Source: an uncultured Poribacteria bacterium (lineage in GTDB: Bacteria > Poribacteria > WGA-4E > WGA-3G). From it: a DNA stretch of 64,000 bases. The position numbers were made by a program, and so were the translations under genes. The notes under the pieces are model-generated. The model saw only the letters and a list, made by a program, of their open reading frames with translations. It had not been told where the DNA came from and did not search any database. Position 1 is the first letter of the stretch, and every line of letters starts with the position of its first letter. The stretch covers positions 1,888,001 to 1,952,000 of the forward strand of contig OX638351.1 of assembly GCA_951813565.1 (NCBI GenBank). The letters run 5' to 3'. Below are positions 7,399-17,170 of the stretch, piece after piece.

Positions 7399-10300
7399 TT
7401 ATTCCTCAACCGTGTCAGCAATCGGTTCAGGCTCAGAAACCGGTTCAGGTAATTCTTCAGGTTCCGGATTATCGATTGCGTCGCGTGACACTTCAAGTTC
7501 ATGCCACTCAGAGAATCCTGTCCCAGCGGGGATGAGGCGTCCGAGGATAACGTTTTCCTTTAGACCTGTAAGCAGGTCTGTTTGTCCTTCAACAGCGGCA
7601 TCTGTGAGAACCTTGGGTGTCTGTTGGAAACTCGCTGCAGAAATGAAACTATCCGTGCTAAGTGATGCTTTACTGATACTCTGCAAGACAGGTTCACCTG
7701 TTGCGGGGGTACCGCCTTCTTGTTCGACACGTCTGTTTTCGGCGTGGAACTTGTGTCGACTGACTTCATCGTTCGCGTAGAACTTTGTGTCCCCGACAGA
7801 TAGGATGCGTATCTTTTGAAGCATCTGTCGCACAATAACTTCCACGTGCTTATCGTTAATGCTGTCAGTCGGATAGACTGCCTGAACCTCATCCACAAGG
7901 TATGCCCAAAGTGCTTCTTCACCTTCCAGAGAATGTCCATTAAGGGTAGTTCTACCAATGGTAAGAATGTCATGTGGGTTGAGGTATCCGTCCGTCAGAG
8001 GTTCTCCTGCTTTGACCCAGTCACCATCATCAACACGGCGTTTCTCGTCGGGAATAGAATATAGACGACTTTTAGTAGCCCCATCTACGATGCGGTATTG
8101 GGGTACTCCAGCTTTCTGCCCGGTGAGTTGCACATGCCCATCAATTTCAGCAATTTCAGCAGCATCTTCGCGTTTTGGACGCCGTGCTTCAAAAAGTTCC
8201 GTCACACGCGGAATCCCAGCAACAATGTCAAGGTTGGTAGTTTTTTCTTGCAATTCTGCCAACGAATGTTGTGCTTTGACACGTTGTCCATCCTTAACAG
8301 AAACTGAGTAACCAGCGGGAATAAGGTGCGACACACTCCCGCCCCCTGGGATATCAATATCGACTCGGAAGGTTTCGATTAAGCCATCCACATCAACGCC
8401 AGCATATTGTTCAAGCGCGGTGGCATATTCCCAATCTTTCAACTCTTGATCGACATTAAGCGTACAGTTCGGATGCGTTACCTTGGTCACTCGATAGGTA
8501 TTCTTTGAAGTAGAAGCCGATTCTTTTTTATAGTTAGCATCACTGAGAATATCACCTACAGCAACCTCAGCATCAGGCGCGGTAACACCCGTTACCTTAA
8601 AGACACGTTCAGTATCAAAGCCTTTGTAAAGTCGTTGGGCACGTTTATACTCAGTCTCGTCAATCTGTTGTCCAGCAGTAAACGGGCAATCATCATGATG
8701 AACAGCAAGGACGTGATACATCAGCTTTACATCAGGCAGTGGCGTATCCGTGTCTCGATGTTGTTTCACAAGTGCTTTGTAGTCCGATTCTGTCATAGTT
8801 TCTTTATCTTCATCCCCTTCAGGGGCATGTAGATAAAGTTTCTCAAAGTCGAACCCCTTATAATTTCGCCGGTATCGATTAGACTCAGATTGCGTGATAA
8901 GTTCACCAACAGCAACGGGAAAGTCAGCGTGGTGTGAGGCTGCAACGCGGTAGAGTCGTTCAACCTCAAACGCTCCTTCATTCTTAGTGACATCAACCTC
9001 AAAACCTGGATATGCCTTCAACACTGCTTTTTTCTCATTTTCGGTGAGCAGTGTTTCAGGTTCCAACTTACAATCGGGATGATGCACAGCAGTAATACGG
9101 TATTTGAGTCGTTCGGCAGTAAACCCGCTGAATTTATTCCGAAGTGCCTCTAATTTATCGGCTTCAATTAGTTCGTCAGGTTTTAGCGGGCATTCCGGGT
9201 GCATTACGTGTTTAACTCGATACAACTCCGCTGATGGGCGTTGCACTTCAAATGCTTTATACGTTTCCTGTGCACGTCGGAATTCTACAGCACTCAATTC
9301 TTGATCCACAGCTAAATCAATACCGTCACTGACCTCTGTTAAGGTATACACCGGTTCATCAAGTTCCAAGTGGTACTGGCTCTCTTCTTCCGGCGAGAGT
9401 AGTTTTCCTTCCTTAAACGGACAACTCGGATGTGTAACCTTCTGAATTTGATACATCATTTCGGCTTTCACACTGTCCTGCTTTCGTAAATATTCACTTT
9501 CGGTAAGGATCGTCCCTTTTTTCGTTTGGTACACCCATTCACCATCAAACGGGCGGATCTCAGAACGCCATGTTTCCGCCTCGCTTTCTGTCAGCAATGT
9601 GCCTTCCTTCAGTGAAGTATCCGCATGTTTTACACTTTTCACACGATAGTGTGGTTCAGAGCATCGGAACGGTGAGAATTTGTGAAAACAGATATTATAT
9701 TCCTGTTCCGTTAGATATTGCCCCTCTTGCAATGAAAAGCCTGATTCAGTGTTCGCTTCAATGATATCTGGACGTTTAACTCCAATAACTTGACAGGCGA
9801 TAGGTTCAACCTCAAACCCAGGAAAACGTTCACGGTTTTCCTCATGCTGTTTCTCGGTGAGGAGTTCATCCGGTTGCAGTTTGCATTCAGGGTGTTCTAC
9901 GGTTTTAACCTTATATTTTGGTTGATCGAGGTGTTCCGCGACCTGTTGAACTATCCATAATCCGCTTTCTTCACGAACGGTACGTCCCGGAATGAAATCA
10001 CGAAACCGCACTTTCCCGGTAGCCTTCGCCAGAATCTTACGTGCGAGTCGTTCACTCATATCTTCAACCACACCGCCTGTATGGAAAGTACGCATTGTCA
10101 ACTGCGTCCCAGGTTCGCCGATAGATTGCGCTGCGATGATGCCGATAGCCTCTCCAACATTGGCAAGTTGTCCCGATGTTAAATCAGCGCCATAGCAGGT
10201 CGCACAGGTGCCTTTATCGGCCTCGCAGGTAAGTATAGATCTGACACGAACGCTGGGAACCTCAGCATCCTCAATAATTTGTGCTATCTGTGGTGTAATC

Positions 10301-13017
10301 AATGTGCCATCTTCAACCAACGTTTCCTCTGTCGTGGGATGTATGACAGGTTCCACGGTGACACGACCACTAATTTTGAAACTGATGGTTCCTGCGTCTG
10401 TGGTAAATTTGAGGATACCGTGCGTTGTGCCGCAATCATCTTCGGTAATCATAACATCTTGCGCAACATCAACAAGTTTCCGCGTGAGGTACCCAGAGGC
10501 AGCGGTTTTCATAGCGGTATCCACCAACCCCTTCCGTGACCCATAGGTTGAGGTAAAGTAATCAAGTACATCCAAGCCTTCCCGATAAGAAGATTGAATC
10601 GGTGTAGACAGAATCTCACCACTCTGCTTAGATTTCAGTCCAACGATAGCACTAATTTGGATAAATGGATTTTTGCGAGCGCGGGCACCACTGTCTGCCA
10701 TCAGATGCACAGGGCTAAAACCTTCAACCTCTTTACCTTGTTCAACCAGATACGTTTCTGTCGTCGGAAGCTCGGTAAACAGCGTCTCTTCAATTTTTTC
10801 GACAGCATCATACCATATCCGAATTTTCTGGTTCTCTAATTCCTCTGCCTCAAGGTTTTCTTCCTCGCTTAAACGTTCAATTTGTTTGCTTGCCGCAGTG
10901 AGGATTTTCGTTTTATCAAGCGGTATCAAGTAATCTCGTATACCAGGCGATATTCCGCTGCGAGTTGCGTACTCAAAACTAAGTTTCTGTAACCGATCTA
11001 ACAACGATACAGTTTCTGCGGTCCCAAGTTCATTAAAACAACGTTTGACAAGTTGCGACAAACGTCTACTGCGCGCTTCCTCATTGAAAAATGGCAATTC
11101 AAGTCCTGTAGTCTCATCTTTCCAAGTGAGTGAGGCGGTGCCGTTTGTATGCGGAAGAACCTCATTAAAAATCACACGTCCAACGGTCGTGAGGATTGGT
11201 TCATGATGTCCTTTGAAGAACAGTAGAACAGAATCATGCAGTTTGAGCGTGCCACAACCGTGTGCATGCGTCACCTCATCCACAGATGTAAATCGGCGCT
11301 TGGCCCAAACTTCATTTTCTAACGTAGCAAAGACGTTATCTGATTTGGCATCTCCTGATTTTTCTGTATAGGCAGCATGGAGTTGTTCTGCTCGTCCTTG
11401 GTGTTCTGGCAGTGATTTTGTTAGAAAACTCGCGCCTAAAATCATATCAAGTTCTGGCACTGTAATCGGTTCACCATGCGAAGGTTTGAGAATATTACCA
11501 CTACTGAGTAGTAACATTTTCGCTTCTGCGCGAGCTTCAATAGATAGAGGCACATGAACTGCCATCTGATCACCATCAAAATCAGCATTAAACGCTTTAC
11601 AAACAAGCGGTGGTATCCGAATTGACTTCCCTTCAACAAGCACAGGCATGAACGCCTGAATTCCGAGTCTGTGTAGCGTCGGAGGACGATTCAATAACAC
11701 TGGATGGTCAGCGATAACTTCCTCTAATGCTTCCCAAACTGGCGAGTCTGGTGTAACGTGTTCGGTCAGATATTTGCCACGTTTAATAGTCTGCACTTTT
11801 CCAGCTGTTAAAAGTTTCTCAATAATAAATGGCTTAAAAAGTTCAACAGCCATTAATTTAGGCACCCCGCACTGATGAAGTTCCAGTTCGGGTCCGACAA
11901 CGATGACGCTTCTGCCAGAATAGTCGACTCGTTTACCGAGTAGATTTTGTCGGAAACGTCCGACTTTACCTTTAAGGATATCAGATAAGGATTTGAGCGC
12001 GCGTTTACCAGGTCCAGTCACGCGACGCCCGTGCCTGCCGTTGTCCAAAAATGCGTCGACAGATTCCTGAAGCATCCGTTTTTCGTTTCGGAGGATGACT
12101 TCGGGAGACCGGAGATCAATAAGTTTTTGCAGTCGGTTGTTTCGGTTAATTACACGGCGATATAGATCGTTGAGATCACTTGTTGCAAACCTACCACCTT
12201 CCAAAGAGACTAAAGGACGAAGATCAGGGCTAATCACAGGAAGAACATCAAGGATCATCCAGTCAGGATGCATCTCTGCTCTGTCAAAACCTGCTACCAT
12301 CTTGAGCTGCTTTGAAAGTTTTACTTTTTTCTGGTGGCTTGAGGTTGCCTCAAGTTCTTCTGTGAATTTTTTCACATCTTCTGGCAGATCAATTTTGCGC
12401 AGGAGTTCCTGAATTGCATCAGCCCCTGTTCGCGCTCGGAACGAATCCGGATGTTCACGCAGCTTAGCATTCACCTCCGTCTCTGTAAGGATATCTTTTT
12501 CTGCCAAACCACAACTGTCATCAATGACCTCTATAACAATAAATGCTTCAAAGTAAAGAACCCGCTCAACTTGTCGGGAGGCAAGCTCAAGGAACGTGCC
12601 AAGTCGCGATGGGATCCCTTTAAAAAACCATATATGGGAAACTGGCGTAGCAAGTTTGATGTACCCAAGTCGTTCTCGTCGGACTTGCGATTTTGTCACC
12701 TCAACTCCGCACTGGTCACAAATAAGACCTTTATGCTTAATTCGCTTATACTTACCGCAACTGCACTCAAAATCCTTTTGTGGGCCAAACGTTGCTTCAC
12801 AAAATAAACCTTGATTTTCAGGGCGAAAACTCCGGTAGTTAATCGTTTCTGCCTTTTTGATTTCGCCGCAATCACATGTGCCTTTCTCGGGACACGTCCA
12901 CGTATCGCTTGCTGGGTTCCGCCGCCTACAAGATGTCCGTTTTGCCCAATCCTTTATCTGCTCAGGCGAAGCGATACTGATAGAGATACGATTAAATCGA
13001 TTTTCTTTGTCTGCCAT
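7399..13017 (-). CDS. rpoC: RNA polymerase beta' subunit with a very large trigger-loop insertion
   Basis: Zn-ribbon CSCGKYK..CDQCGVE, GRFRQNLLGKRVDYSGRSVI, NADFDGD, EPGTQLTMRTFHTGG, GLKENVILGRLIPAGTG; start placed at MADKE after an AAAGGAG RBS. Confidence 0.98.
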   Translation of the reverse strand: MADKENRFNRISISIASPEQIKDWAKRTSCRRRNPASDTWTCPEKGTCDCGEIKKAETINYRSFRPENQGLFCEATFGPQKDFECSCGKYKRIKHKGLICDQCGVEVTKSQVRRERLGYIKLATPVSHIWFFKGIPSRLGTFLELASRQVERVLYFEAFIVIEVIDDSCGLAEKDILTETEVNAKLREHPDSFRARTGADAIQELLRKIDLPEDVKKFTEELEATSSHQKKVKLSKQLKMVAGFDRAEMHPDWMILDVLPVISPDLRPLVSLEGGRFATSDLNDLYRRVINRNNRLQKLIDLRSPEVILRNEKRMLQESVDAFLDNGRHGRRVTGPGKRALKSLSDILKGKVGRFRQNLLGKRVDYSGRSVIVVGPELELHQCGVPKLMAVELFKPFIIEKLLTAGKVQTIKRGKYLTEHVTPDSPVWEALEEVIADHPVLLNRPPTLHRLGIQAFMPVLVEGKSIRIPPLVCKAFNADFDGDQMAVHVPLSIEARAEAKMLLLSSGNILKPSHGEPITVPELDMILGASFLTKSLPEHQGRAEQLHAAYTEKSGDAKSDNVFATLENEVWAKRRFTSVDEVTHAHGCGTLKLHDSVLLFFKGHHEPILTTVGRVIFNEVLPHTNGTASLTWKDETTGLELPFFNEEARSRRLSQLVKRCFNELGTAETVSLLDRLQKLSFEYATRSGISPGIRDYLIPLDKTKILTAASKQIERLSEEENLEAEELENQKIRIWYDAVEKIEETLFTELPTTETYLVEQGKEVEGFSPVHLMADSGARARKNPFIQISAIVGLKSKQSGEILSTPIQSSYREGLDVLDYFTSTYGSRKGLVDTAMKTAASGYLTRKLVDVAQDVMITEDDCGTTHGILKFTTDAGTISFKISGRVTVEPVIHPTTEETLVEDGTLITPQIAQIIEDAEVPSVRVRSILTCEADKGTCATCYGADLTSGQLANVGEAIGIIAAQSIGEPGTQLTMRTFHTGGVVEDMSERLARKILAKATGKVRFRDFIPGRTVREESGLWIVQQVAEHLDQPKYKVKTVEHPECKLQPDELLTEKQHEENRERFPGFEVEPIACQVIGVKRPDIIEANTESGFSLQEGQYLTEQEYNICFHKFSPFRCSEPHYRVKSVKHADTSLKEGTLLTESEAETWRSEIRPFDGEWVYQTKKGTILTESEYLRKQDSVKAEMMYQIQKVTHPSCPFKEGKLLSPEEESQYHLELDEPVYTLTEVSDGIDLAVDQELSAVEFRRAQETYKAFEVQRPSAELYRVKHVMHPECPLKPDELIEADKLEALRNKFSGFTAERLKYRITAVHHPDCKLEPETLLTENEKKAVLKAYPGFEVDVTKNEGAFEVERLYRVAASHHADFPVAVGELITQSESNRYRRNYKGFDFEKLYLHAPEGDEDKETMTESDYKALVKQHRDTDTPLPDVKLMYHVLAVHHDDCPFTAGQQIDETEYKRAQRLYKGFDTERVFKVTGVTAPDAEVAVGDILSDANYKKESASTSKNTYRVTKVTHPNCTLNVDQELKDWEYATALEQYAGVDVDGLIETFRVDIDIPGGGSVSHLIPAGYSVSVKDGQRVKAQHSLAELQEKTTNLDIVAGIPRVTELFEARRPKREDAAEIAEIDGHVQLTGQKAGVPQYRIVDGATKSRLYSIPDEKRRVDDGDWVKAGEPLTDGYLNPHDILTIGRTTLNGHSLEGEEALWAYLVDEVQAVYPTDSINDKHVEVIVRQMLQKIRILSVGDTKFYANDEVSRHKFHAENRRVEQEGGTPATGEPVLQSISKASLSTDSFISAASFQQTPKVLTDAAVEGQTDLLTGLKENVILGRLIPAGTGFSEWHELEVSRDAIDNPEPEELPEPVSEPEPIADTVEE

Positions 13018-13048
13018 TCTTTCTGCTCCTTTAATGGTTGTAGGAATG

Positions 13049-13135
13049 GCTATCGGCAATTAGCCCTCGGCTTTCAGTATAAGAGATATGTGATGTATGC
13101 CAGTCCCCTTACCGATAGCCGATAGTTGATAGCCA
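13049..13135. repeat. Inverted GCTATCG/CGATAGC heptamer repeats in the rpoB-rpoC spacer
   Basis: GCTATCGGC at ~13049 and CCGATAGCCGATAGTTGATAGCC at ~13112-13135 can pair. Confidence 0.45.
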
Positions 13136-13144
13136 TGTTTCAAA

Positions 13145-16100
13145 CTATTCGGCGTCATCGGTGTCCCACGTGAGTTTTAAAGGTGGTTCCTCATCTATGG
13201 GTTCCATTGTATCCAACGTGTGTAAGAGCGGGAATCCCGCTTCATGGAGACCTACTTGTTCTGAGTCAACATCTGCAGGGTCACCTTCAGATAATTCCAC
13301 ATTTAAACCAAGACTTTGCAATTCTCTCACCAACACGTTAAAAGATTCAGGGGTGCCGGGTTTTAAAGGACTTTGACCTTTTACAATAGATTCATAAATT
13401 TTGGTTCTGCCTTTTACATCGTCCGACTTGATAGTCAACATCTCTTGCAGTGTGTGTGCTGCACCATAAGCCTCCAATGCCCAAACCTCCATTTCACCGA
13501 GTCGTTGCCCTCCGTGTTGGGCCTTTCCACCCAGCGGTTGCTGTGTCACCAAGGAGTACGGCCCGGTTGAACGCGCATGCATTTTATCCGCAACGAGGTG
13601 ATTCAACTTGAGAAAATAAACATAACCAACTGTTACTTCCTGTCCGAACGGTTCACCAGTGCGTCCATCATAGAGTACGCTTTTACCTGTCTGTTTGACC
13701 TTATCAGGCAAACCCGTTTTCACCAACATGTCGAACACCTCTTCCTCTGTAGCACCGTCAAATACAGGTGAGGCAACATGCAAACCGAGTTCCTTGCATG
13801 CCAAACCTAAATGTATTTCGAGAATCTGACCAACATTCATCCGAGAAGGCACGCCAAGAGGATTTAAAACTATATCAACAGGAGTACCATCCGGTAGGTA
13901 TGGCATATCTTCTTCGGGTAAAATTTTGGCGACAACGCCCTTGTTACCGTAGCGCCCCGCCATTTTATCTCCGATGGAGATCGGACGTCGACTTGCAACA
14001 TAGACTTTGACAAGTTTCAAAACCCCCGGTTTTAACTCTTCACCTGCAGCGAGTTTTTCCAACGCGTCATCTTTTTCCTGCGTATAAGCATTAATCCGAC
14101 CAGTGGCGAGTTCTTGCAGATTCTTAATGTACGACACTGCATCTGCATCTGTGATCTGAAGTGCTTCCAATTGACTTTGCGACAGCACGTCCAGATATTC
14201 ACGCGTCAACACTTCACCTGCCTGCATCTGCAGAGGTGCTTCAGTGTTTTCCCCATCCTCAGCCTTACTATCCTCCTCAAAAGTTGTTGGATACGCGAGT
14301 TCTTTGTTGACCAAAGTCTCACGTAATTCTTCTGTCAAGCGTTCGGTAACTTGTGCACACTGTTCTGTCCAGGTTTGCTCAATTTGTTTTCGGAATGCCT
14401 CTTGCCGCCAAGCGGTTCGCTCGCTATTAGGGGTAGCTTGGCGAGAGAATACCTTTACGTCAATGACAACGCCTTCTACGCCTGGTCGGGTGTAAGCGGA
14501 AGCGTCTTTTACCTCTTTGACTTTTTCCCCGAAAATCGCTCGTAGTAGTTTTTCTTCAGGACCATATTCACTTTCCCCTTTTGGAGAGATTTTTCCGACA
14601 AGAATACTACCGGTCCCAACGACACTCCCGATCCGAATGATTCCTTCGTCATCAAGTTGGGCAAGGCTCCGGGCAGACATGTTTGGAATATCACGGGTGA
14701 TCTCTTCGTCTCCCATCTTTGTTTGCCTCGCGGCGACTTCGAATTCTTCAATATGGATAGAGGTGAACGTATCGTTTTTGATGAGCGACTCGCTGATGAG
14801 GATTGAGTCCTCAAAGTTGTGTCCGCCCCACGGCATATAGGCGCAAAGAACATTTCTTCCAAGTGCGAGTTCACCACCTTCAGTTGCTGTGCCATCGGCA
14901 ACAACATCGCCAGCTTCAACAACATCGCCTATATTCACGCGTGGACGCTGATGGATACAGGTGCCGCTGTTACTCCGCTTGAAGTTTTTCAGTTTATAGA
15001 CATCGTAGCCCATTTCACTGAAAGCATGCTCACCTTCTTCAAGATGAAGCGCTTGCCCAGTGCGGATCAGGATCTCTTCGGCATCAACGCTGGAGACAAC
15101 CCCATCACGTTGTGCGATGACCATAGCATTAGCATCACGCGCAGCGCGATGTTCCATACCGGTCCCAACCCACGGTGCCTCTGGACGAATTAGCGGTACT
15201 GCCTGTCGCTGATGGTTAGCCCCCATGAGTGCACGGTTAGCATCTTCATGCTCCAAAAAAGGCACAAGCGCAGCGGAAACACCAACAATTTGTTGCGGAG
15301 CGATACCGATGTAATCAATTTCTTTAAGCTCGCGCGGAAGCACTTCCTCACCTTTTCGGCTACGAAGTATTTTTGATCTACTGTGAGAAGATATAGCATC
15401 TGCAGGGGCAATGTGGTACTTGTCCTCTGCATCTGCTGTTAAATATTCAACATCTTTGGTAATTTTACCTCTGCGGACAACACGGTAGGGTGTTTCTAAA
15501 AACCCGTATGGATTAACACGCGCAAAAGTTGCTAAGGAAACTATGAGACCGATGGAGGGCCCCTCCGGCGTTTCTAAAGGACAGACACGTCCATAATGCG
15601 TGCGATGGACATCTCGCACGGCTGCGGTAGCACGGTCACGATGTAACCCGCCAGGACCGATCGCTGAAATACGACGTTTATGGGTGAGTTCATCCAACGG
15701 ATTAATCTGTTGCATGAATTGGGAAAGTTGGTTAGAGCCGAAAAACTCTCGGAGTGCCATCATGAGTGGCTTTGGATTCACCAAATTCTTCGGATTTTTC
15801 AGCTGTGCATCAGTGGTCGTACTTAGTTTTTCTCGCGCTGCTCGGCGCATTTGCAGCAGTGCCATGCGAAATTGATTCTCAAGCAGTTCTCCGATAACAC
15901 GCACGCGGCGATTTCCGAGATGGTCTAAATCATCTACTTCTCTGTGCCCATTTCGGATGTGCATCAGGTGTTGTAAAGTGGCAGCGATATCCTCTTTGCG
16001 AAGTACCTTTATCTCTTCTAATGGCATCTCACCGGATTCATCAATATAGATAGCTAAATCACCGAGTTGCGTATTGAGTTTGTATCTTCCGACGGTGCCT

Positions 16101-17170
16101 AAATCATAACGTGCGCCATCAAAAAACAGGCGTTCTAAGCAGGTTGAAGATGCTTCGCGTGTTGGGGCATCGCCAGGCCGCAAGGTGCGAAATATCTCAA
16201 GCAGTGCTCCCTCTTGCAATGTTCCACCTGCATACGCCTTAACCGTGTCACGCGAAAGCGTATTCCGCAAATATCGTAGTTCCTGTTCATCTGATTCCCC
16301 CAACACTTCCACCTCTGATATCTTAGCTTCGGTGAGTCGATCAAATTCTATTTCAGATAACTTCGTATTTGCTTCAAGCAAAACTTCGCCTGAACTGGCG
16401 TCAACCACAGGTTCCGCGATAACGCGTCCGATAACATCCTGCGTCATCGGAACGATCTCTGTGCTGCTGAAAAGTTTTAGGATTTCCGCATCTGTTTCCC
16501 AACCGAGTGCCCGTAAAAGGACGGTAGCTAATAGTTTTTTCTTTCGGTCTAATCGGACGTGGATGCAGTCCTTTGAATCAAACTCAAATTCTATCCATGC
16601 GCCTCGATAGGGAATAATCTGGCCTGTTGGGAGTTTCTGCACACTTGCTGCATGCGATTTATCAAGAAAAATTACGCCTGGAGACCGATGTAACTGGTTT
16701 ACAATCACACGTTCGGACCCGTTAATGATAAAAGTTCCATTCTCAGTCATCAACGGAATATCACCAAGGTACACATCAGATTCGGTAATATCTAAAACAC
16801 GCGTTTGCCCTGTATCCTCATCCTTTTCGCGTTCGACGCGCATCAGGCGGGCTTGTAGCCGCACCTGATAGTTCAGGCCGCGTGCTTGACAATCCGAAAG
16901 ATCGTGTATGGGTGGACTAAGCGTGTAACTGACAAATTCAAGACTTGTCGTTTCTTTAAAATCATAAATCGGAAAAACTTCCTTGAACAGTGCCTGAAGT
17001 CCCATCGTCTCGCGTTCATTTCCTTCAACAAAACGTTGTAAAAATGCTGCGTAGGAACGCTTTTGGGTCTCAATTAAGTCAGGCAGTTCAAGCACCGATG
17101 GAGTTTTGGCAAAGGAGACACGTTGTCGTAACGCTGCTGAACTTCCATTAGTTTTAGTAGTATTGGGCAT
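13145..17170 (-). CDS. rpoB: RNA polymerase beta subunit
   Basis: [81 protein letters not shown]. Confidence 0.98.
   Translation of the reverse strand: [1341 protein letters not shown]

What the first reader, a model, noticed from the sequence alone, without database searches (positions are those of the whole stretch)
8240..10070. RpoC trigger loop carries ~13 tandem repeats that resemble the protein's own clamp segment
Seen: about 600 aa lie between RTFHTGG and DIVAGIPRV. They open with half of an SBHM-like fold (ILAKATGKVRF) and close with the other half (IPAGYSVSVKDGQRVKA). In between (~8395-9915) I count 11 full and 2 partial copies of a 35-40-aa unit, Y-x-V-x-x-V-x-H-P-x-C-x-L-x-x-G/D-x-L-L-T-E-x-E-Y...Y/F-x-G-F (e.g. 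YRITAVHHPDCKLEPETLLTENEKKAVLKAYPGF). The unit resembles this protein's clamp segment FIVIEVIDDSCGLAEKDILTETEVNAKLREHPDSF (~12440-12545). Established: trigger-loop insertions (E. coli SI3, the larger cyanobacterial one) are built from SBHM repeats and affect pausing and promoter complexes. Inference: a different module, possibly copied from the clamp and possibly metal-binding through HPxC, was amplified inside an SBHM into a long arm on the catalytic loop. I do not know of a described example.
Basis: partly seen in the sequence, partly recalled or inferred. Interest (0 to 1): 0.9.

Follow-up and report, generated by a model that had tools for sequence, protein, structure and literature searches.

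The report
Repeat arm inside RNA polymerase trigger loop
In one family of sponge-associated bacteria (Poribacteria), the catalytic trigger loop of RNA polymerase carries a 614-residue insertion made mostly of 13 copies of a small module copied from the enzyme's own clamp, a build not reported for such insertions.

Summary
The gene at window 7399-13059 (-) is rpoC (1886 aa). 614 residues lie between RTFHTGG and DIVAGIPRV. Their flanks are the two halves of one SBHM, homologous to the C-terminal SBHM of E. coli SI3. A loop of that SBHM holds 13 tandem units of 25-48 aa (window 8380-9915). In leave-one-out tests, 12 of 13 units beat all 200 shuffles.

The unit is not an SBHM. It is a strand-strand-helix-strand module. 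Its only significant relative in beta' is the clamp module (E. coli beta' 144-180; hhalign E 3.6e-16 against relatives that lack the array). That segment is also the only extra hit in the whole 5.4-Mb genome. A weaker link leads to the BBM2 motif of E. coli beta-i4.

The array occurs in 107 of 111 other genomes of one Poribacteria family and in 0 of 64 genomes from ten sister families. It is under purifying selection (dN/dS about 0.1), and single contigs from three studies span it.

Metal binding through HPxC is untested and looks unlikely. Function is inferred: an acidic body carried by the trigger loop that acts like SI3, in an order where Gre and DksA were not found.

This is a new variant of a known kind. 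This scan noted a related case earlier in another Poribacteria genome.

The parts
7399..13059 (-). rpoC (beta' subunit), 1886-aa open frame. The likely true start is MADKENRF at residue 15 (window 13017).
   Evidence: relatives begin at MADKENRF
12424..12543 (-). Clamp module (residues 173-212, FIVIEVIDDSCGLAEKDILTETEVNAKLREHPDSF...). Equivalent to E. coli beta' 144-180 and the likely source of the repeated unit.
10072..10092 (-). RTFHTGG, the end of the first trigger helix (residues 990-996)
9916..10038 (-). N-terminal half of the single SBHM (residues 1008-1048). Aligns to E. coli beta' 1026-1065 (SI3 SBHMb).
   Evidence: strands in model
8380..9915 (-). Array of 13 tandem clamp-like modules (residues 1049-1560, 512 aa). 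pI 5.14 over the 510 aa computed.
9796..9915 (-). unit 1 (residues 1049-1088)
   Evidence: leave-one-out 42.4 bits, 0/200 shuffles reach it
9649..9792 (-). unit 2 (residues 1090-1137), with a 9-residue loop insertion
   Evidence: 12.7 bits, 0/200; alignment
9529..9648 (-). unit 3 (residues 1138-1177)
   Evidence: 35.8 bits, 0/200
9454..9528 (-). unit 4, partial (residues 1178-1202)
   Evidence: 11.0 bits, 0/200
9343..9453 (-). unit 5 (residues 1203-1239)
   Evidence: 21.3 bits, 0/200
9223..9348 (-). unit 6 (residues 1238-1279), degenerate
   Evidence: 16.0 bits, 0/200
9103..9222 (-). unit 7 (residues 1280-1319)
   Evidence: 37.9 bits, 0/200
8983..9102 (-). unit 8 (residues 1320-1359)
   Evidence: 49.4 bits, 0/200
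8833..8952 (-). unit 9 (residues 1370-1409)
   Evidence: 37.2 bits, 0/200; 28.6 bits as a non-seed member
8719..8829 (-). unit 10 (residues 1411-1447). Degenerate in this genome.
   Evidence: 1.7 bits, 18/200 shuffles reach it; its counterpart in a distant genus is canonical
8602..8718 (-). unit 11 (residues 1448-1486)
   Evidence: 40.0 bits, 0/200
8497..8601 (-). unit 12 (residues 1487-1521)
   Evidence: 17.2 bits, 0/200
8380..8496 (-). unit 13 (residues 1522-1560)
   Evidence: 36.4 bits, 0/200
8242..8379 (-). C-terminal half of the SBHM (residues 1561-1606). Aligns to E. coli beta' 1074-1126.
8203..8229 (-). DIVAGIPRV, the start of the second trigger helix (residues 1611-1619)

Best explanation
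SHOWN. This is the beta' subunit of a Poribacteria RNA polymerase. Its trigger-loop insertion (the SI3 / beta'i6 site) has been rebuilt. The first SBHM of the usual two-SBHM insertion is absent. The second SBHM is kept. In the loop that corresponds to E. coli beta' about 1065-1074, it carries 13 tandem copies of a module of about 40 aa, with the order strand, turn (H-P-x-C), short strand, helix, strand. The module is homologous to the beta' clamp module (E. coli beta' 144-180) and more distantly to BBM2. The array is old: units keep their positional identity across genera. It is fixed in one family and is under purifying selection.

INFERRED (origin). The unit arose by copying the lineage's own clamp module into the SBHM loop, followed by tandem amplification.

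INFERRED (mechanism; my odds about 45% for this version).
- The array enters and leaves through one loop, so it must be a closed body of about 60 kDa hanging on the SBHM.
- It therefore has to move with every folding and unfolding of the trigger loop, as E. coli SI3 and cyanobacterial Si3 do.
- The host loop is the part of E. coli SI3 nearest the downstream DNA. The secondary-channel-facing SBHMa is missing. The body is acidic (96 D+E against 66 K+R).
- I therefore expect it to lie along the jaw, beta-lobe and downstream-DNA side. There it would tune trigger-loop folding (pausing, catalysis, open-complex stability) and offer a docking surface, rather than bind DNA.
- This happens in an order where no Gre factor and almost no DksA was found.
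For: Identity and site. With the array cut out, the rest aligns to SBHMb of E. coli SI3 and of five to six relatives, and SBHMa is absent. The flank profiles align to E. coli beta' 1026-1065 and 1074-1126.

Fold: the AF2 model of residues 985-1625 has pLDDT 81.5 and shows a regular strand/strand/helix/strand repeat. The three-unit model has pLDDT 79.7.

Clamp homology:
- A profile of 118 trigger-loop units against the clamp segments of 5 relatives that lack the array gave prob 98.7%, E 3.6e-16.
- Against a full-length alignment of 10 RpoC without the array, the only significant hit was E. coli beta' 144-180 (prob 92.9%, E 3.6e-7).
- In the PDB profile search, the top 4 of 17 hits were beta' chains at residues about 141-170 (E 0.016-0.089).
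- In Foldseek, one unit superposes on Firmicute beta' over 40-41 columns, rmsd 1.4-2.1 A, 22-30% identity.
- All 13 of 13 units score higher on the clamp-module HMM (2.0-20.2 bits) than on the beta-lobe module HMM (-2.3 to 4.7 bits).

Distribution:
- The insert is 614-616 aa in 14 of 14 genus loci read.
- Of 121 proteins read, 118 gave a measurable insert of 613-1359 aa with 9-18 units.
- In the phylum scan the window's family had 107/111 and the ten other families 0/64.

Selection: dN/dS is 0.094-0.134 in the array and 0.036-0.055 in the rest, in the 8 of 10 pairs where dS was finite.

Positional orthology.

Context: the Gre N domain was found in 0/176 genomes, while the control rang in 9 of 14 named genomes. 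The DksA zinc finger was found in f1 1/111, f2 0/11, f3 0/29 and f4 1/7.

Literature passages read:
- SBHMa faces the secondary channel. SBHMb faces the downstream DNA, with D1073 16 A from position +14. SI3 is acidic (Opalka 2010, PMC2939025).
- Cyanobacterial Si3 swings with the trigger loop and shields the Gre/DksA site (Qayyum 2024, PMC10895346).
Against: - Whole-model Foldseek gave nothing at E <= 0.001.
- The window's own clamp segment scores only 4.3 bits with the first 8-seed HMM. The strong scores come from relatives' clamp segments.
- pTM of 0.45 means the overall shape is unknown.
- Gre and DksA are also missing from sister families that lack the array, so their absence is not tied to the array.
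- dN/dS in the array is about 2.5 times that of the rest of the protein.
- No experiment bears on function.
- Lane & Darst 2010 and Iyer et al. 2004, the catalogues of RNAP insertions, could not be read here.
Confidence: 0.7

Rival explanations
1. The units are ordinary, diverged SBHMs, so this is simply a large SI3 of the cyanobacterial type.
For: Insert size (614 aa) is close to cyanobacterial Si3 (645 aa). The flanks are SBHM halves. T. elongatus Si3 (8emb_C) appears at rank 4 in the whole-model Foldseek list, but at E 0.035.
Against: Each unit is 35-48 aa and contains a helix. That is too short for an SBHM, whose two halves here take about 90 aa. The unit profile hits the clamp module and no SI3 or SBHM region of RpoC. 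The window's family shows no sequence match to the trigger-loop inserts of sister families (0/64).
Confidence: 0.03
2. The array is a metal-binding device: His and Cys of the H-P-x-C turns from neighbouring units form Zn or other metal sites.
For: His is present in 90% and Cys in 66% of 118 strong units. Several of these His and Cys are invariant across 33 aligned sequences.
Against: Each unit gives at most 2-3 ligands. Units 3, 9 and 12 lack the Cys, and unit 12 lacks both residues. The clamp module has D-P-x-C and the beta-lobe module has D-x-x-T/S-G-E at the same turn, which suggests a structural turn. No coordinates were available to measure distances.
Confidence: 0.1
3. The unit came from the beta-lobe BBM2 module or from outside the genome (horizontal transfer), not from the clamp.
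For: The unit profile's best hit in beta is E. coli beta 300-335, inside beta-i4 BBM2b (prob 63%, E 6.8e-5). The same unit sits in tandem at the beta-i4 site in a relative.
Against: 13 of 13 units score higher on the clamp HMM than on the lobe HMM. The units share D/H-P-x-C-P-L with the clamp modules of this order. Only 30 proteins in 1.84 billion representatives match at E <= 0.001. Of the 20 scanned with Pfam, 7 were RpoC or RpoB and 3 were TPR proteins. Three matches were tied to Poribacteria: P0126 matches the beta of a same-family genome (L050/G087), P0133 is 100% identical to a frame in G150, and P0142 is named Candidatus Poribacteria by its source.
Confidence: 0.1
4. The array is a selfish in-frame element (intein-like or endonuclease-borne) tolerated at a permissive loop, with no role in transcription.
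For: Relatives carry nuclease domains in frame in or next to such arrays. PF18741 lies at residues 1328-1421 of P0123, between units. An HNH-like motif lies beside 7 units in the beta subunit of G001. An earlier scan note (e1-749041) reports the same.
Against: No Pfam family, Hint or nuclease, matches the window's array at E <= 1. Length is fixed at 614-616 aa in 14 of 14 genus loci. dN/dS is about 0.1. Unit-by-unit orthology holds across genera.
Confidence: 0.05
5. Assembly artefact.
For: None found.
Against: Single contigs from three DNA runs of three studies span the stretch with 0-2 differences. 107 of 111 other family genomes carry the array, several of them as single-contig genomes.
Confidence: 0.01

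Closest known systems
E. coli SI3 (beta'i6), the 188-aa trigger-loop insertion of two SBHMs
   Same: It sits at the same site in the trigger loop. The window's flanks are homologous to its C-terminal SBHM (SBHMb). Both are acidic.
   Different: SBHMa is absent here. 512 of the 614 residues are 13 non-SBHM modules nested in an SBHMb loop. The insert is 3.3 times longer.
Cyanobacterial / plastid Si3 (645 aa, 8-9 SBHMs; Qayyum 2024, PMC10895346, passages read)
   Same: Both are very large trigger-loop cargo of similar size, nested in a first SBHM. Both occur in lineages where secondary-channel factors were not found (for this phylum).
   Different: The building block is different: a clamp-like alpha/beta module rather than an SBHM. 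beta' is not split. No sequence relation was found. Gre and DksA are also missing in sister families without the array.
BBM2 (beta-beta' module 2) tandem repeats of beta-i4 / SI1 (Iyer 2004 as cited in Opalka 2010, PMC2939025)
   Same: Both are small modules that occur in tandem (1-6 copies) in RNAP lineage-specific inserts. The unit profile's top hit in beta lies in E. coli BBM2b. Relatives have five of the same units at the beta-i4 site.
   Different: The link is weak (prob 63%). No fold match to the beta-i4 crystal appeared in my lists. BBM2 has not been reported in the trigger loop in the papers I could search. The copy number of 13 exceeds the 1-6 quoted.
beta' clamp module, E. coli beta' 144-180. 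That this segment belongs to the clamp is recalled, not tested.
   Same: It is the best sequence and profile relative of the unit, and a single unit superposes on it at 1.4-2.1 A.
   Different: It is a single conserved copy in the clamp, not a repeat and not in the trigger loop.
   Same: A giant trigger-loop insertion with 'SBHM/BBM2-like repeats' in Poribacteria beta'.
   Different: That one is 827 aa and holds an in-frame HNH domain. The window's insert has no nuclease domain. The clamp origin and the single-SBHM host were worked out here.

Membership tests
Trigger-loop insertion SI3 / beta'i6 | Inserted between the two trigger helices of beta' | tested here: met
   614 aa lie between RTFHTGG and DIVAGIPRV. 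Aligned with E. coli and relatives.
Trigger-loop insertion SI3 / beta'i6 | Consists of two or more SBHM repeats (Bao & Landick 2021, passage read) | tested here: not met
   Only one SBHM equivalent is present, aligned to E. coli 1026-1065 and 1074-1126. SBHMa is absent. The other 512 aa match the clamp module and no SBHM region.
Trigger-loop insertion SI3 / beta'i6 | The flanks adopt the SBHM fold | tested here: inconclusive
   Profile homology to SBHMb, and a second hit to the jaw region at 1169-1211. The model shows strands only. No separate fold search of the flanks was made.
BBM2 (beta-beta' module 2) | Profile similarity to a literature-defined BBM2 (E. coli beta-i4, residues 225-343) | tested here: inconclusive
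   The top hit of the unit profile along beta is E. coli 300-335, prob 63%, E 6.8e-5. The 118-unit HMM gives no hit in beta-i4 of the single E. coli sequence.
BBM2 (beta-beta' module 2) | Occurs as tandem repeats in lineage-specific inserts of beta and beta' | tested here: met
   13 copies in the beta' trigger loop. Five at the beta-i4 site of P0126/L050. About 7 in the beta subunit of G001.
BBM2 (beta-beta' module 2) | Same fold as the beta-i4 crystal structure | tested here: inconclusive
   No beta-i4 chain was listed among the matches. Those lists show only the best alignment per chain.
beta' clamp module (E. coli beta' 144-180) | Significant profile-profile similarity | tested here: met
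   Prob 98.7%, E 3.6e-16. Prob 92.9%, E 3.6e-7 as the only hit along RpoC. The only non-training hit in the genome.
beta' clamp module (E. coli beta' 144-180) | Superposable fold | tested here: inconclusive
Intein / homing-endonuclease insertion | Hint or nuclease domain present | tested here: not met
   No Pfam family other than the five Rpb1 domains matches at E <= 1.
Zinc-binding repeat | Three to four ligands placed for one metal site | not testable with these tools
Only motif frequencies are known.

The most novel reading that the evidence does not exclude
In one Poribacteria family, a module copied from the beta' clamp has become a lineage-specific building block. It has been inserted and amplified repeatedly in the transcription machinery:
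- 13 or more copies on the catalytic trigger loop in every genus.
- 5-7 copies at two different sites of beta in some genera.
- Copies in TPR proteins.
- Sometimes the arrays lie next to in-frame nuclease domains.

The trigger-loop array would be a second, independent invention of a giant mobile arm on the active-site loop, convergent with cyanobacterial Si3. It arose in a lineage that also lacks Gre and DksA, and it would take over control of pausing, proofreading or access to the enzyme.
Probability: 0.3. Interest if true: 0.8.

Novelty: new variant of a known kind. Interest (0 to 1): 0.65.

Why it matters
Trigger-loop insertions are thought to be built only from SBHMs (Bao & Landick 2021, passage read), and cyanobacterial Si3 (645 aa) is called the largest lineage-specific insert (Qayyum 2024). 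This case changes both points:
- The catalytic loop carries a cargo of similar size built from a different module, taken from the enzyme's own clamp. Relatives reach 923-1359 aa.
- It is therefore a natural test of what such cargo needs to be. Mass and anchorage may matter more than a particular fold.
- It is a second case of a giant insert in a lineage without Gre or DksA.
- It is a clean example of intragenic domain copying followed by amplification.
- It is a sharp marker for one Poribacteria family (107/111 against 0/64).

These bacteria are uncultured, so the main route to function is to express the enzyme in another host.

Tried and rejected
- Whole-model Foldseek against the PDB gave no match at E <= 0.001. 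The three-unit model likewise gave none.
- I first recalled that Thermus beta'i2 is made of BBM2 repeats. Opalka 2010 says it is made of SBHM repeats, so I dropped that line.
- The ESM Atlas gave no usable hit.
- Lane & Darst 2010 (two papers) could not be read by PubMed id or PMC id. Iyer 2004 has no PMC id in the reference list. Whether they list such an insert stays open. The supplements of Bao & Landick (species table, Fig. S6) are closed and may bear on which phyla they examined.
- Literature searches found nothing on this insert: 'Poribacteria' + 'RNA polymerase' gave 30 papers, 15 listed, none on an rpoC insert. One of them was checked by passages. 'trigger loop' + 'insertion' + 'BBM2' gave only Opalka 2010.
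- Gre and DksA absence as a correlate of the array was rejected, because sister families without the array also lack them.
- P0135, P0144, P0147, P0148, P0150 and P0151 from the representative search are low-complexity or unrelated proteins, or gave no unit hit on re-scoring.
- The RNA run X19 holds only contigs of a 90-95% relative, over 13 of 30 bins. That is a hint of transcription in a relative, not proof, and the holes prove nothing.
- The 'near' look-up of earlier findings returned nothing.
Full report
WHAT IS THERE. The finding lies in a 1886-aa open frame on the minus strand (window 7399-13059). It is rpoC: TIGR02386 scores 1418.7 bits, and the five Pfam Rpb1 domains are present, with Rpb1_5 stretched over residues 828-1760. 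No other Pfam family matches at E <= 1. rpoB (1341 aa) lies directly upstream at 13145-17170. Proteins named by their sources among the relatives are all 'Candidatus Poribacteria bacterium'.

THE OBSERVATION. RTFHTGG begins at residue 990 and DIVAGIPRV at residue 1611, with 614 residues between them. Thirteen units fill residues 1049-1560 (window 8380-9915).
- In a leave-one-out test, 12 of 13 units scored 11.0-49.4 bits against an HMM of the other twelve and beat all 200 shuffles. Unit 10 scored 1.7 bits, reached by 18 of 200 shuffles. Its positional counterpart in a distant genus is canonical.
- The consensus of 118 strong units from 17 proteins is Y-[RK]-[VI]-T-x-V-x-H-P-[DE]-C-P-L-x-x-G-E-L-L-[TS]-E-x-E-Y ... 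[YF]-x-G-F-[DE]-V-E, with His in 90% and Cys in 66%. These units were chosen at 15 bits or more, which favours the motif.
- The stretch is not an assembly artefact. Three DNA runs from three studies each hold window 8200-10100 in one 11.8-12 kb contig with 0-2 differences and no indel or joint. One of them may be the assembly's source.

THE HOST FOLD. With the array cut out in a script, the remainder aligns to the second SBHM of the two-SBHM inserts of E. coli and of relatives of the same order, and the first SBHM is missing. Without any joining, profiles of the two flanks align to E. coli beta' 1026-1065 (prob 69%, E 4.3e-5) and 1074-1126 (prob 92%, E 6.2e-7). The C-terminal flank has a second hit at 1169-1211. 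The array therefore sits in the SBHMb loop that corresponds to E. coli about 1065-1074. Opalka et al. 2010 (PMC2939025, passages read) say three things that bear on this:
- SBHMb harbours the larger insertions between its core strands.
- SBHMa faces the secondary channel.
- SBHMb faces the downstream DNA, with D1073 its closest point (16 A from position +14).
Two genomes of a sister family carry an unrelated insert of about 170-190 aa at the same loop (L014, L015).

THE UNIT. AlphaFold2 on residues 985-1625 (33-row alignment) gave pLDDT 81.5 and pTM 0.45. It shows a regular pattern of strand, loop, short strand, helix and strand, and strands often run on from one unit into the next. A three-unit model (residues 1276-1412) gave pLDDT 79.7.

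Fold searches are weak because the unit is small.
- Nothing reached E <= 0.001 in Foldseek.
- The lists are nevertheless dominated by beta' chains.
- Single units superpose on Firmicute beta' over 40-41 columns at rmsd 1.4-2.1 A and 22-30% identity (6wvj_D, 7l7b_D, 7ckq_D, 7f75_D). For 7ckq_D the matched range is beta' residues 131-171.
- The fold alone does not decide.

Sequence does decide.
- A profile of the 12 window units puts beta' residues about 141-170 in the top four of 17 PDB hits (E 0.016-0.089).
- The 118-unit profile matches the clamp segments of five relatives that lack the array at prob 98.7%, E 3.6e-16.
- Along a full-length alignment of ten RpoC without the array, its only significant hit is E. 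coli beta' 144-180 (prob 92.9%, E 3.6e-7; the next hit has E 0.17).
- All 13 units score higher on an HMM of the clamp module than on one of the beta-lobe module.

RELATION TO BBM2. Opalka 2010 reports that beta-i4 was predicted to hold one to six tandem BBM2 motifs, and that E. coli beta-i4 (residues 225-343) has two. Along a 21-sequence beta alignment, the unit profile's best hit is E. coli beta 300-335, inside that insert (prob 63%, E 6.8e-5). A beta subunit 66% identical to the window's (P0126, the type found in genome G087/L050 of the same family) has five of the same units exactly at the beta-i4 site, directly before the resident module. I therefore call the unit BBM2-like, with the clamp module as its nearest kin. 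Strict membership is not settled. My recollection that Thermus beta'i2 consists of BBM2 was wrong: the paper says SBHM.

DISTRIBUTION AND AGE.
- The insert is 614-616 aa in 14 of 14 loci of the genus.
- It is 193-214 aa in seven loci of three sister families and 369-388 aa in two.
- Of 121 proteins read (the window's plus the 120 listed of 149 hits), 118 gave a measurable insert of 613-1359 aa with 9-18 detected units. Three gave none because the sequence was truncated or the motif was not found.
- A scan of 176 genomes of the phylum with the 512-aa array found it in 107 of 111 other genomes of the window's family (6 of 6 genera). The four misses are 81-90% complete. It was found in 0 of 64 genomes of ten other families.
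- The strong units (1, 3, 7, 9, 10, 11, 13) find their positional counterpart as the best match in proteins of a distant genus.
- dN/dS against genus members is 0.094-0.134 in the array and 0.036-0.055 elsewhere (8 of 10 pairs; dS was saturated in two).
- Among 1.84 billion representative proteins, only 30 match the unit profile at E <= 0.001. Of the 20 I scanned with Pfam, five are RpoC, two RpoB and three TPR proteins. One TPR protein is identical to a frame in a genome of the same family.

HOW IT LIKELY WORKS (inference). The array leaves and re-enters one SBHM loop, so it is a closed body of about 60 kDa on the SBHM, which is itself tied to both trigger helices by short linkers. It must therefore travel with each folding cycle of the trigger loop. 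The same is shown for E. coli SI3 and for cyanobacterial Si3, which swings widely and shields the Gre/DksA site (Qayyum 2024). Three features point to the jaw, lobe and downstream-DNA side rather than to the secondary channel or to DNA binding:
- The host loop is the one nearest the downstream DNA in E. coli.
- SBHMa is lost.
- The array is acidic, with 96 D+E against 66 K+R and pI 5.14.
My best guess is a regulator of trigger-loop folding (pausing, catalysis, open-complex stability) and a docking surface.

Context: the Gre N domain was found in 0 of 176 genomes of the phylum. The Gre C domain was over its cut-off only once, in a 1346-aa frame. The DksA zinc finger was found in 2 of 158 genomes of the four families of the order, but in f5 3/3, f9 1/1, f10 2/2 and f11 1/1. 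This parallels cyanobacteria, but it is shared by sister families without the array, so it is context and not evidence for the mechanism.

METAL BINDING. The motif is strongly conserved. However, each unit offers one His and one Cys, some units lack one or both, and the clamp module has D-P-x-C at the same turn. I give the metal reading about 10%. It was not testable here because no coordinates were available.

NOVELTY. [quoted passage not shown] My searches found no paper on a Poribacteria rpoC insert or on BBM2 in the trigger loop. The two catalogues that could contradict this were not readable. This scan noted a related insert earlier, in another Poribacteria genome (e1-749041). The finding is a new variant of a known kind, a trigger-loop insertion built from a different module. 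It is not a new category.

Noticed in passing
L022 / L049 (G001:C3, rpoB): In a genome of the same genus, beta is an 1818-aa frame. It has an insertion of about 450 aa at E. coli beta 597/598, which contains an HNH-like Cys/His motif followed by about 7 of the same units (up to 34.6 bits). G095 has a similar 1814-aa frame.
   Followed up: partly
L050 (G087, same family); P0126: Beta of 1548/1519 aa with five of the same units in tandem exactly at the beta-i4 site, just before the resident lobe module.
   Followed up: partly
one search matches near rpoC in genus g13 (e.g. G148:C1:3923171-3924049): In the other large genus of the family, frames of about 1750-1900 aa next to rpoC (presumably rpoB) share a region with residues 213-520 of the TPR protein P0133, which holds the units. 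Beta seems to be decorated there too.
   Followed up: no
P0132, P0133 (= G150:C1:806564-809074, L067), P0149: TPR-repeat proteins of 452-938 aa carry 2-4 copies of the same unit outside RNA polymerase. The window's own genome has none.
   Followed up: partly
whole phylum: No Gre factor was found in 176 genomes (N domain 0/176), and the DksA/TraR zinc finger was found in only 2 of 158 genomes of the four families of this order. The controls rang in named genomes.
   Followed up: partly
window 12868-12939 (-), beta' residues about 41-64: A Cys-rich micro-insertion (C-x13-C-x5-C-x-C) lies ahead of the usual N-terminal zinc-binding motif of beta'. It is conserved in the 33-row alignment. It may be an extra zinc knuckle.
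   Followed up: no
P0008, P0011, P0013, P0014, P0024, P0031, P0065, P0123 (relatives' RpoC): Many relatives have further in-frame insertions. One is a 343-aa coiled-coil repeat after residue 736. Others are 300-550 aa around residues 905-914 in proteins with PF18741 or PF04480 nuclease-like domains. PF18741 lies inside the array in P0123.
   Followed up: partly
L014, L015 (sister family f4), trigger-loop inserts of 369-388 aa: A different, largely helical insert of about 170-190 aa occupies the same SBHMb loop, so this loop is a hot spot for insertions.
   Followed up: no
P0139 (2029 aa, metagenome contig of 8305 bases): An RpoC only 38-40% identical to both the window's and E. coli's. Its whole clamp segment (E. 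coli 123-223) is repeated about 8 times in place, and it has no trigger-loop insert.
   Followed up: partly
window 8395-8821 and 9552-9661, run X19: Metatranscriptome contigs of a 90-95% identical relative cover parts of the array. This is a hint of transcription, with the caveat that DNA can be present in RNA libraries.
   Followed up: partly
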